The notes under the pieces: model-generated | The model's input: only the letters and a program-made list of their open reading frames with translations | Databases searched by the model: none | Told to the model about the DNA's origin: nothing | Made by a program: the position numbers and the translations under genes | NCBI GenBank assembly: GCA_030390025.1 | Contig: CM059429.1 | Location: forward strand, 32,240,001-32,304,000 | Length of the DNA: 64,000 bases | Direction of reading: 5' to 3' | Source of the DNA: Squalus acanthias | Taxonomy: Eukaryota | In this document: positions 46,640 to 46,725 of the stretch, one piece after another | Layout: every line of letters starts with the position of its first letter | How positions within the stretch are numbered: the stretch's first letter is position 1

Positions 46640-46725
46640 CATGGCACCAAAGGAATTTGCAGAATTGCACAGCATGCGTGATGCATATAGGGATTATTCA
46701 TGTGGTGATGGCCGCAATTGGCCTC
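46640..46725. promoter_or_regulatory. SRR2-like element
   Basis: About +3.8 kb from the TSS. gtgatgcatatagggattattcatgtggtgatg resembles the mammalian SRR2 core (cattgtgatgcatataggattattcacgtggtaatg, recalled). Confidence 0.65.

What the first reader, a model, noticed from the sequence alone, without database searches (positions are those of the whole stretch)
46640..46725. SRR2 pluripotency-enhancer precursor: octamer intact, Sox half-site altered
Seen: cagCATGCGTG-ATGCATATagggattattcatgtggtgatg at about +3.8 kb. Known: mammalian SRR2 lies about +4 kb and depends on the composite CATTGTG-ATGCATAT bound by SOX2-OCT4. Here the octamer (46681-46688), the GGATTA and the E-box position are kept, but CATTGT reads CATGCGT. 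Inference: SRR2 has a deep gnathostome origin as a POU/homeodomain element, and the Sox-Oct autoregulatory composite was gained later (or lost in this lineage) through very few substitutions.
Basis: partly seen in the sequence, partly recalled or inferred. Interest (0 to 1): 0.7.

Follow-up and report, generated by a model that had tools for sequence, protein, structure and literature searches.

The report
Ancient SRR2 enhancer without Sox site
Just downstream of the Sox2 gene, in what is likely a shark, lies a sequence matching the mouse stem-cell enhancer SRR2; it keeps the OCT-binding octamer but lacks the SOX2 site, so it likely predates the SOX2-OCT4 feedback loop and likely works as a POU-driven neural enhancer.

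Summary
Window 46678-46710 matches the published mouse SRR2 core at 30 of 32 bases plus one extra G (compared by eye; E about 8e-7). It sits about 3.8 kb past the likely Sox2 start site. SRR1/N2 is conserved upstream.

The octamer (46681-46688) is intact. The Sox half is gone: four contiguous bases differ, and no Sox core lies within 46656-46715. The E-box reads CATGTG, not CACGTG, and the mouse Emx2/Brn2 ATTA-4 site is absent.

A held paper calls SRR2 conserved in chicken but not frog or zebrafish, hence 'evolutionally new'. A shark-like copy contradicts that.

New lead: the four replacing bases spell ATGC, which makes 46674-46686 one mismatch from a MORE+1 POU-homodimer site (post hoc P=0.0035).

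Limits: gain versus loss could not be polarised; the shark lineage is inferred, not database-checked; function is untested. Gain of Sox-Oct sites by a few substitutions was already proposed for chick versus mouse (recalled; paper not held).

The parts
46638..46710 (+). SRR2-homologous element (alignable span)
   Evidence: By-eye alignment to the mouse core: 54 of 75 columns identical
46678..46710 (+). Highly conserved core block
   Evidence: 30 of 32 mouse bases identical, 1 extra G; E=8.1e-7; decoy controls
46681..46688 (+). Octamer ATGCATAT (POU monomer site), identical to mouse SRR2
46674..46677 (+). Four bases (ATGC) in place of the mouse Sox half-site bases (CATT); CAGC just upstream matches mouse again
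   Evidence: 3 mismatches to the strict and 2 to the relaxed Sox-Oct pattern
46674..46686 (+). MORE+1-like POU homodimer element, 1 mismatch (46678) of 12 specified bases
   Evidence: definition; only 1 of 256 four-mers gives it, P=0.0035, post hoc
46673..46681 (-). Pax paired-domain core-like TCACGCATG (consensus recalled); full Pax6 consensus not matched
   Evidence: only hit in the window, 1.05 expected; site absent from the 12 hits at up to 3 mismatches
46691..46696 (+). GGATTA, homeodomain-type core (label recalled), conserved with mouse
46693..46701 (+). ATTATTCAT, Pit-1/POU3-type site (consensus recalled); its last base differs from mouse and includes a MORE-A4 half-site
   Evidence: half-site defined
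46699..46704 (+). E-box CATGTG (mouse CACGTG; one transition at the CpG)
   Evidence: MYC pulls down with the SRR2 probe
46649..46658 (+). Second conserved block, 9 of 10 identical to mouse; overlaps a 7/8 octamer on the minus strand (46655-46662)
   Evidence: By eye; chance about 0.014; octamer variant
43162..44094 (+). Sox2, single exon, 310 aa; the likely target gene
   Evidence: HMG_box, SOXp; top 8 of 26 PDB hits are SOX-2
40240..40530 (+). SRR1/N2 enhancer orthologue (locus control)
   Evidence: Published ATTA-3 probe aligns 33 of 34 with a 2-nt insertion at 40338-40373; other published oligos match by eye (against 10, 13, 59)

Best explanation
The stretch 46638-46710, 3.5 kb after the Sox2 start codon, matches the mouse SRR2 core, keeps its octamer and has no Sox site beside it, and likely acts as a POU-bound neural progenitor enhancer of Sox2 in what is likely a shark, predicted to work without SOX2-POU cooperativity. 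Shown: homology, position, intact octamer, lost Sox half. Inferred: POU factors (POU3F in neural cells, possibly POU5 early) bind the octamer as monomers, helped by the neighbouring GGATTA/ATTATTCAT and E-box positions and perhaps by a second POU molecule on the ATGCGT half-site. The enhancer would feed POU input into Sox2 but could not close a SOX2 autoregulatory loop. Inferred more weakly: this Sox-less state is ancestral for jawed vertebrates, the Sox half was gained on the line to mammals by 2-4 base changes, and frog and zebrafish lost or scrambled the element.
For: Core block E=8.1e-7, with position and strand as in mouse and SRR1/N2 conserved on the other side. No WTTGT/ACAAW in 46656-46715; 6 mismatches to the Sox-Oct consensus against 2 for mouse (by eye). 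Four adjacent differences inside a block otherwise about 6% diverged are clustered (P about 3e-4 to 0.05 depending on assumed divergence), so constraint differs at exactly the Sox half. The mouse POU site binds Oct4 in ES cells and Brn1/Brn2 in neural cells, and SRR2 drives telencephalic expression. Srr2 deletion lowers SOX2 in proliferating neural stem cells. The element is POU-dense: 5 ATGC/GCAT tetramers in 73 bp, reached by 0.09% of flanking windows (post hoc, overlapping counts). In chick, Sox2 is not seen until neural plate stages, which fits a neural ancestral role.
Against: No binding or reporter data for this sequence. Only one non-mammalian sequence was compared, so polarity is not shown. 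The G and T at 46678-46679 are shared with the mouse Sox motif and the G is the one base that spoils the MORE+1 match, which fits decay of an older Sox site equally well. The CACGTG-to-CATGTG change follows the usual CpG decay direction, suggesting this lineage changed too. Chondrichthyan POU5 proteins can support mouse ES cells, so the trans side of the loop is already ancient. The lineage is inferred from recalled repeat and protein features only. Distant Sox cores exist at 46593 and 46810, though at or below background density.
Confidence: 0.6

Rival explanations
1. The element is specifically a MORE+1 POU3F homodimer site, and mammals converted one POU half-site into a Sox half-site, switching it from a neural POU-POU element to a SOX2-OCT4 element.
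For: 46674-46686 is 1 mismatch from MORE+1. Only ATGC among 256 four-mers does this, P=0.0035; 0.009 allowing the A4 subtype. POU3 factors in neural stem cells bind mainly through MORE elements including MORE+1, and Oct4 prefers Sox-Oct.
Against: Post hoc motif choice. MORE+1 matches at up to 2 mismatches are not enriched in the window (6 against 4.86). The mismatch lies inside a half-site. Conservation runs past the right half-site as a full octamer. A methyl-CpG mimicking the missing T is my speculation, and is disfavoured because 33-63 kb is CpG-rich (o/e 0.67-0.90), which suggests an unmethylated region.
Confidence: 0.2
2. The Sox-Oct composite was ancestral in jawed vertebrates and this lineage lost the Sox half.
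For: The last two bases of the Sox motif and the spacer are retained. The E-box change looks like CpG decay in this lineage. Shark POU5 proteins already support pluripotency.
Against: Non-mammalian Sox-Oct composites are reported defective at Fgf4 and, as I recall, at chick SRR2. Chick Sox2 is not a pre-streak gene. Ancestral presence would then need several independent losses.
Confidence: 0.2
3. The altered half is a Pax paired-domain site overlapping the octamer, making a Pax/POU element.
For: A perfect TCACGCWTS core at 46673-46681 on the minus strand, the only one in the window. It explains the shared GTG. 2 of 256 four-mers give it, P=0.0069. PAX6 is among the factors listed as binding the mouse downstream SRRs collectively.
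Against: One core is expected by chance per window (1.05). The full Pax6 consensus does not match within 3 mismatches. The consensus is recalled; the paper checked gave none.
Confidence: 0.12
4. The match to SRR2 is chance, or the sequence is a non-functional relic.
For: The one published primer tested gives 17 of 22, reached by 23 of 300 whole-window shuffles. The block alone has E about 0.05 against a 4-Gb genome.
Against: That primer spans the diverged bases, yet its best hit in 64 kb is this site, and only 7 of 3000 shuffles of the expected 2-kb zone reach it. E=1.3e-8 in that zone. About 94% identity over 32 bases across such a distance implies purifying selection.
Confidence: 0.04

Closest known systems
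Mouse/human Sox2 regulatory region 2 (SRR2, Sox2 3' enhancer)
   Same: Position (about +3.7-3.8 kb), strand, octamer ATGCATAT, the following GGATTATTCA stretch, E-box position, and an upstream GAATTT block.
   Different: Sox half CATTGT replaced by ATGCGT; E-box CATGTG instead of CACGTG; one extra G after the octamer; the Emx2/Brn2 ATTA-4 site absent.
Chicken SRR2 and Fgf4 enhancers with broken Sox-Oct composites (Fernandez-Tresguerres et al. 2010)
   Same: An alignable non-mammalian enhancer in which one half of the Sox-Oct composite differs by a few bases (Fgf4 case seen second-hand; SRR2 case recalled).
   Different: Here the lineage is likely far more distant, and the replacing bases form a POU half-site. 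I could not see the chick sequence.
MORE+1 POU homodimer element
   Same: Two ATGCAT-type half-sites separated by one base, 11 of 12 specified bases matching.
   Different: The left half is ATGCGT, and the right half continues as a conserved octamer. Dimer binding is untested.
SRR1/N2 enhancer of Sox2
   Same: A POU-site enhancer of the same gene, deeply conserved and present in this window. [quoted passage not shown]
   Different: N2 was already traced to fish; SRR2 was traced only to platypus or chicken.

Membership tests
SRR2 orthologue | Lies about 4 kb 3' of the Sox2 TSS, same strand | tested here: met
   TSS inferred
SRR2 orthologue | Significant sequence alignment to the mouse core | tested here: met
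   By-eye counts; E=8.1e-7; controls
SRR2 orthologue | Locus is Sox2 proper with SRR1/N2 upstream | tested here: met
SRR2-type Sox-Oct composite enhancer | Octamer half | tested here: met
   ATGCATAT at 46681-46688
SRR2-type Sox-Oct composite enhancer | Sox half (YWTTGT) one base 5' of the octamer | tested here: not met
   3 mismatches strict, 2 relaxed; not among the 2 hits; no Sox core in 46656-46715
SRR2-type Sox-Oct composite enhancer | Canonical E-box CACGTG and ATTA-4 site as in mouse | tested here: not met
   CATGTG at 46699; no TAAT between 46500 and 46692
SRR2-type Sox-Oct composite enhancer | Cooperative SOX2-POU binding and ESC/NSC enhancer activity | not testable with these tools
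   Needs EMSA and reporters
MORE+1 POU homodimer element | Two ATG(C/A)AT half-sites with one spacer base | tested here: inconclusive
   1 mismatch of 12; P=0.0035 post hoc; no window-wide enrichment
MORE+1 POU homodimer element | Cooperative POU3F homodimer formation | not testable with these tools
   Needs EMSA
Pax6 paired-domain site | Core TCACGCWTS (recalled) | tested here: met
Pax6 paired-domain site | Full bipartite consensus (recalled) within 3 mismatches | tested here: not met
Chondrichthyan origin of the window | Database assignment of Sox2 or the repeats to cartilaginous fish | not testable with these tools
   The protein look-up could not be made; inference rests on a CR1-like LINE tail and Sox2 C-terminal indels judged from recall

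The most novel reading that the evidence does not exclude
SRR2 is a gnathostome-old neural enhancer whose ancestral core was a POU3F homodimer (MORE+1) site, and mammals rewired it into the SOX2-OCT4 autoregulatory switch by overwriting one POU half-site with a Sox half-site in three to four bases. This would be a cis-side mirror of the known MORE-versus-SoxOct protein switch between Oct6/Brn2 and Oct4.
Probability: 0.18. Interest if true: 0.78.

Novelty: new variant of a known kind. Interest (0 to 1): 0.5.

Why it matters
SRR2 is the textbook SOX2-OCT4 autoregulatory element, and a held paper treats it as an amniote novelty. A clear orthologue in a likely shark would move its origin to the jawed-vertebrate ancestor and imply loss or divergence in frog and zebrafish. 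It also separates the age of the enhancer from the age of its Sox site. A 13-bp difference gives a clean, cheap test of how pluripotency wiring arose from a neural enhancer. If the MORE+1 reading holds, it names the ancestral binding mode. Surprise is moderate: slowly evolving shark genomes often keep elements that teleosts lost (own knowledge), and few-base gain of Sox-Oct sites was already proposed.

Tried and rejected
Octamer count as evidence: 8 in the window against 3.55 expected, 4 of 100 shuffles as high; uninformative for one site.

A relocated Sox-Oct composite: 2 hits at 1 mismatch against 1.73 expected, neither here. Sox cores within 46500-46900: 1 strict against 1.66 expected, 2 relaxed against 3.27; no sign of compensation.

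Classic MORE without spacer: 4 hits at up to 2 mismatches against 4.21 expected, none here. Full Pax6 consensus: not matched. Methyl-CpG rescue of the MORE+1 mismatch: disfavoured by the CpG-rich surroundings. The local CpG dip (12 observed, 25.9 expected from base composition) is not clearly different from the regional level.

Rfam: 0 matches in 64 kb, so no Sox2ot synteny support. Plasmid collection: no match to 46590-46760, so no mammalian SRR2 could be stored for a machine alignment. The supplement of PMC8019947 held no sequence. A second published 3' enhancer primer shows only a weak by-eye resemblance near 46859-46868 (11 of 21), not counted. The TCACGC hits shown from PMC4488758 were primer sequences and gave no Pax consensus. 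Tomioka 2002, Fernandez-Tresguerres 2010 and Kamachi 2009 are not held.

Full report
Locus. The window holds a single-exon 310-aa ORF at 43162-44094 with HMG_box and SOXp domains; the top 8 of 26 PDB matches are SOX-2. A published mouse probe from the 5' enhancer SRR1/N2 aligns at 40338-40373 with 33 of 34 identities and a 2-nt insertion. Other published N2 oligos match 40240-40530 by eye (against 10, 13, 59). The gene is therefore Sox2 proper in its known regulatory setting. The lineage is inferred only: a CR1-like LINE at 14694-16880 has a 3' tail that I recall as typical of sharks, and the Sox2 C-terminus has indels I recall as absent from bony vertebrates. A database look-up of the protein could not be made, so 'shark' stays likely, not shown.

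Observation. Mouse SRR2 is placed at about +3.7 kb. PMC3413107 prints the mouse core. Compared by eye, window 46678-46710 has 30 of 32 identities, two transitions (46701, 46707) and one extra G. With blastn scoring this is 43.7 bits: E=8.1e-7 for the window, 1.3e-8 for the expected 2-kb zone, 0.05 for a 4-Gb genome. Of 1417 random decoys none reached that score. Of reversed-window decoys 7 of 1417 and 15 of 2259 did, and all 15 carry simple-repeat runs. A published 22-nt primer spanning the diverged bases finds this site as its best hit in 64 kb at 17 of 22; 23 of 300 whole-window shuffles and 7 of 3000 zone shuffles did as well. A second block at 46649-46658 matches 9 of 10 (chance about 0.014), and the span 46638-46710 is 54 of 75 columns identical. 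The homology is real. The alignment itself is by eye, not machine-made.

What differs from mouse. CAGC at 46670-46673 and GTG at 46678-46680 match, but the four bases between read ATGC where mouse has CATT: four substitutions ungapped, or three edits with indels. The site is 3 mismatches from a strict and 2 from a relaxed Sox-Oct pattern, and 6 from the consensus in PMC4576985, against 2 for mouse by eye. No Sox core lies within 46656-46715, and the two cores in 46500-46900 are at or below background. The clustering of four differences in an otherwise conserved block has P between 3e-4 and 0.05. The E-box is CATGTG rather than CACGTG; MYC pulls down with the mammalian probe. The mouse ATTA-4 site, which binds Emx2 and Brn2, has no counterpart: there is no TAAT in 46500-46692. 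So it is an SRR2 orthologue but fails membership as a Sox-Oct composite.

What the altered bases might be. ATGC makes 46674-46686 one mismatch from MORE+1, two POU half-sites with a one-base spacer. PMC4576985 reports MORE+1 among Brn1/Brn2/Oct6 motifs in neural stem cells (8 of the top 200 Oct6 peaks) and no Sox-Oct elements in those peaks. POU3 factors dimerise on MORE more cooperatively than Oct4. Holding the flanks fixed, 1 of 256 four-mers gives this, P=0.0035. That is post hoc; allowing for a handful of POU architectures I put it nearer 0.02, and higher if any motif family counts. Against it: MORE+1 near-matches are not enriched in the window (6 against 4.86), and the mismatching G is shared with mouse, where it belongs to the Sox motif. 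The same four bases give a Pax core on the minus strand (P=0.0069) without the full Pax6 consensus (both recalled). These are one coincidence with two readings, not two. The change at 46701 also creates ATTATTCAT, a POU-type site, but a CpG transition is the commonest mutation. The 73-bp element has 5 ATGC/GCAT tetramers, reached by 0.09% of windows in 33-63 kb (overlapping counts). CpG o/e is 0.22-0.57 over 1-33 kb and 0.67-0.90 over 33-63 kb, which suggests an unmethylated valley and argues against methyl-C rescuing the MORE+1 mismatch.

Mechanism. Shown: orthology, intact octamer, absent Sox half. From the literature: the mouse POU site binds Oct4 in ES cells and Brn1/Brn2 in neural cells and the enhancer is telencephalic. 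Srr2 deletion lowers SOX2 in proliferating neural stem cells, while loss of SRR1 or SRR2 alone gives no obvious neurodevelopmental phenotype. Inferred: here POU factors bind the octamer and drive Sox2 in neural progenitors with no SOX2 feedback (confidence 0.6 for the whole account; about 0.95 for homology alone). Polarity is the weakest step. Later gain is favoured by reported defects in non-mammalian Sox-Oct composites and late Sox2 onset in chick. Loss here is favoured by the retained GT, the decayed E-box, and chondrichthyan POU5 proteins that already rescue mouse ES cells.

Relation to print. [quoted passage not shown] PMC3024949 traces the downstream Oct/Sox region to platypus. I found no report of SRR2 in cartilaginous or basal bony fishes in searches (19 of 22 papers listed; 13 of 13; 25 of 563 listed; none had both SRR2 and Sox2). 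The library lacks most subscription papers and bioRxiv supplements are closed, so this is weak evidence of novelty. Gain of Sox-Oct sites through a few base changes in Sox2 and Fgf4 is the thesis of Fernandez-Tresguerres et al. 2010 (recalled; citation seen, Fgf4 half described; searches list papers that cite it, of which I opened two, with no account of its SRR2 part).

What I saw of each paper. Passages plus one named section: PMC3413107 (section 7), PMC3024949 (section 18), PMC9943670 (section 27). Passages plus supplement: PMC8019947. Passages only: bioRxiv 2024.09.19.613943, 2023.11.09.566464, 377010; PMC13307697, PMC7931612, PMC5007870, PMC4576985, PMC9492771, PMC4488758, PMC5286379, PMC5100098. 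Nothing (recalled or cited second-hand): Tomioka 2002, Fernandez-Tresguerres 2010, Kamachi 2009, Iwafuchi-Doi 2011.

Verdict. A real, significant SRR2 orthologue lacking the Sox half-site; a new variant of a known element. The depth of conservation contradicts a published statement if the lineage is confirmed. The few-substitution idea is not new, direction is unresolved, and the MORE+1 reading is a specific, testable lead at about 0.2. Interest 0.5.

Noticed in passing
window 40240-40530: SRR1/N2 enhancer almost unchanged from mouse, including the POU/ATTA-3 site; only about 2.6 kb upstream of the putative TSS against 4.2 kb in mouse.
   Followed up: partly
window 33000-63000: A roughly 30-kb CpG-rich domain (o/e 0.67-0.90 against 0.22-0.57 upstream) around Sox2, like a DNA-methylation valley.
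   Followed up: partly
window 14694-16880 (+), tail to about 16985: Uninterrupted 728-aa CR1-like LINE reverse transcriptase ORF with a short tandem-repeat tail; related fragments nearby, e.g. 11732-12103.
   Followed up: partly
window 42577-42879: Sox2 promoter with three reverse CCAAT boxes (42577, 42708, 42875), GC boxes and a perfect octamer ATGCAAAT at 42825-42832.
   Followed up: no
window 38898-38911 (+): A one-mismatch Sox-Oct-like composite about 4 kb upstream of Sox2; at chance frequency (2 hits against 1.73 expected).
   Followed up: no
window 46805-46835: AT-rich cluster 120 bp downstream of the element with a Sox core (46810, minus strand) and two TAAT sites; conservation unknown.
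   Followed up: no
window 46859-46868: Weak resemblance to the published mouse 3' enhancer reverse primer, which might extend the SRR2 homology by about 160 bp; not significant by itself.
   Followed up: partly
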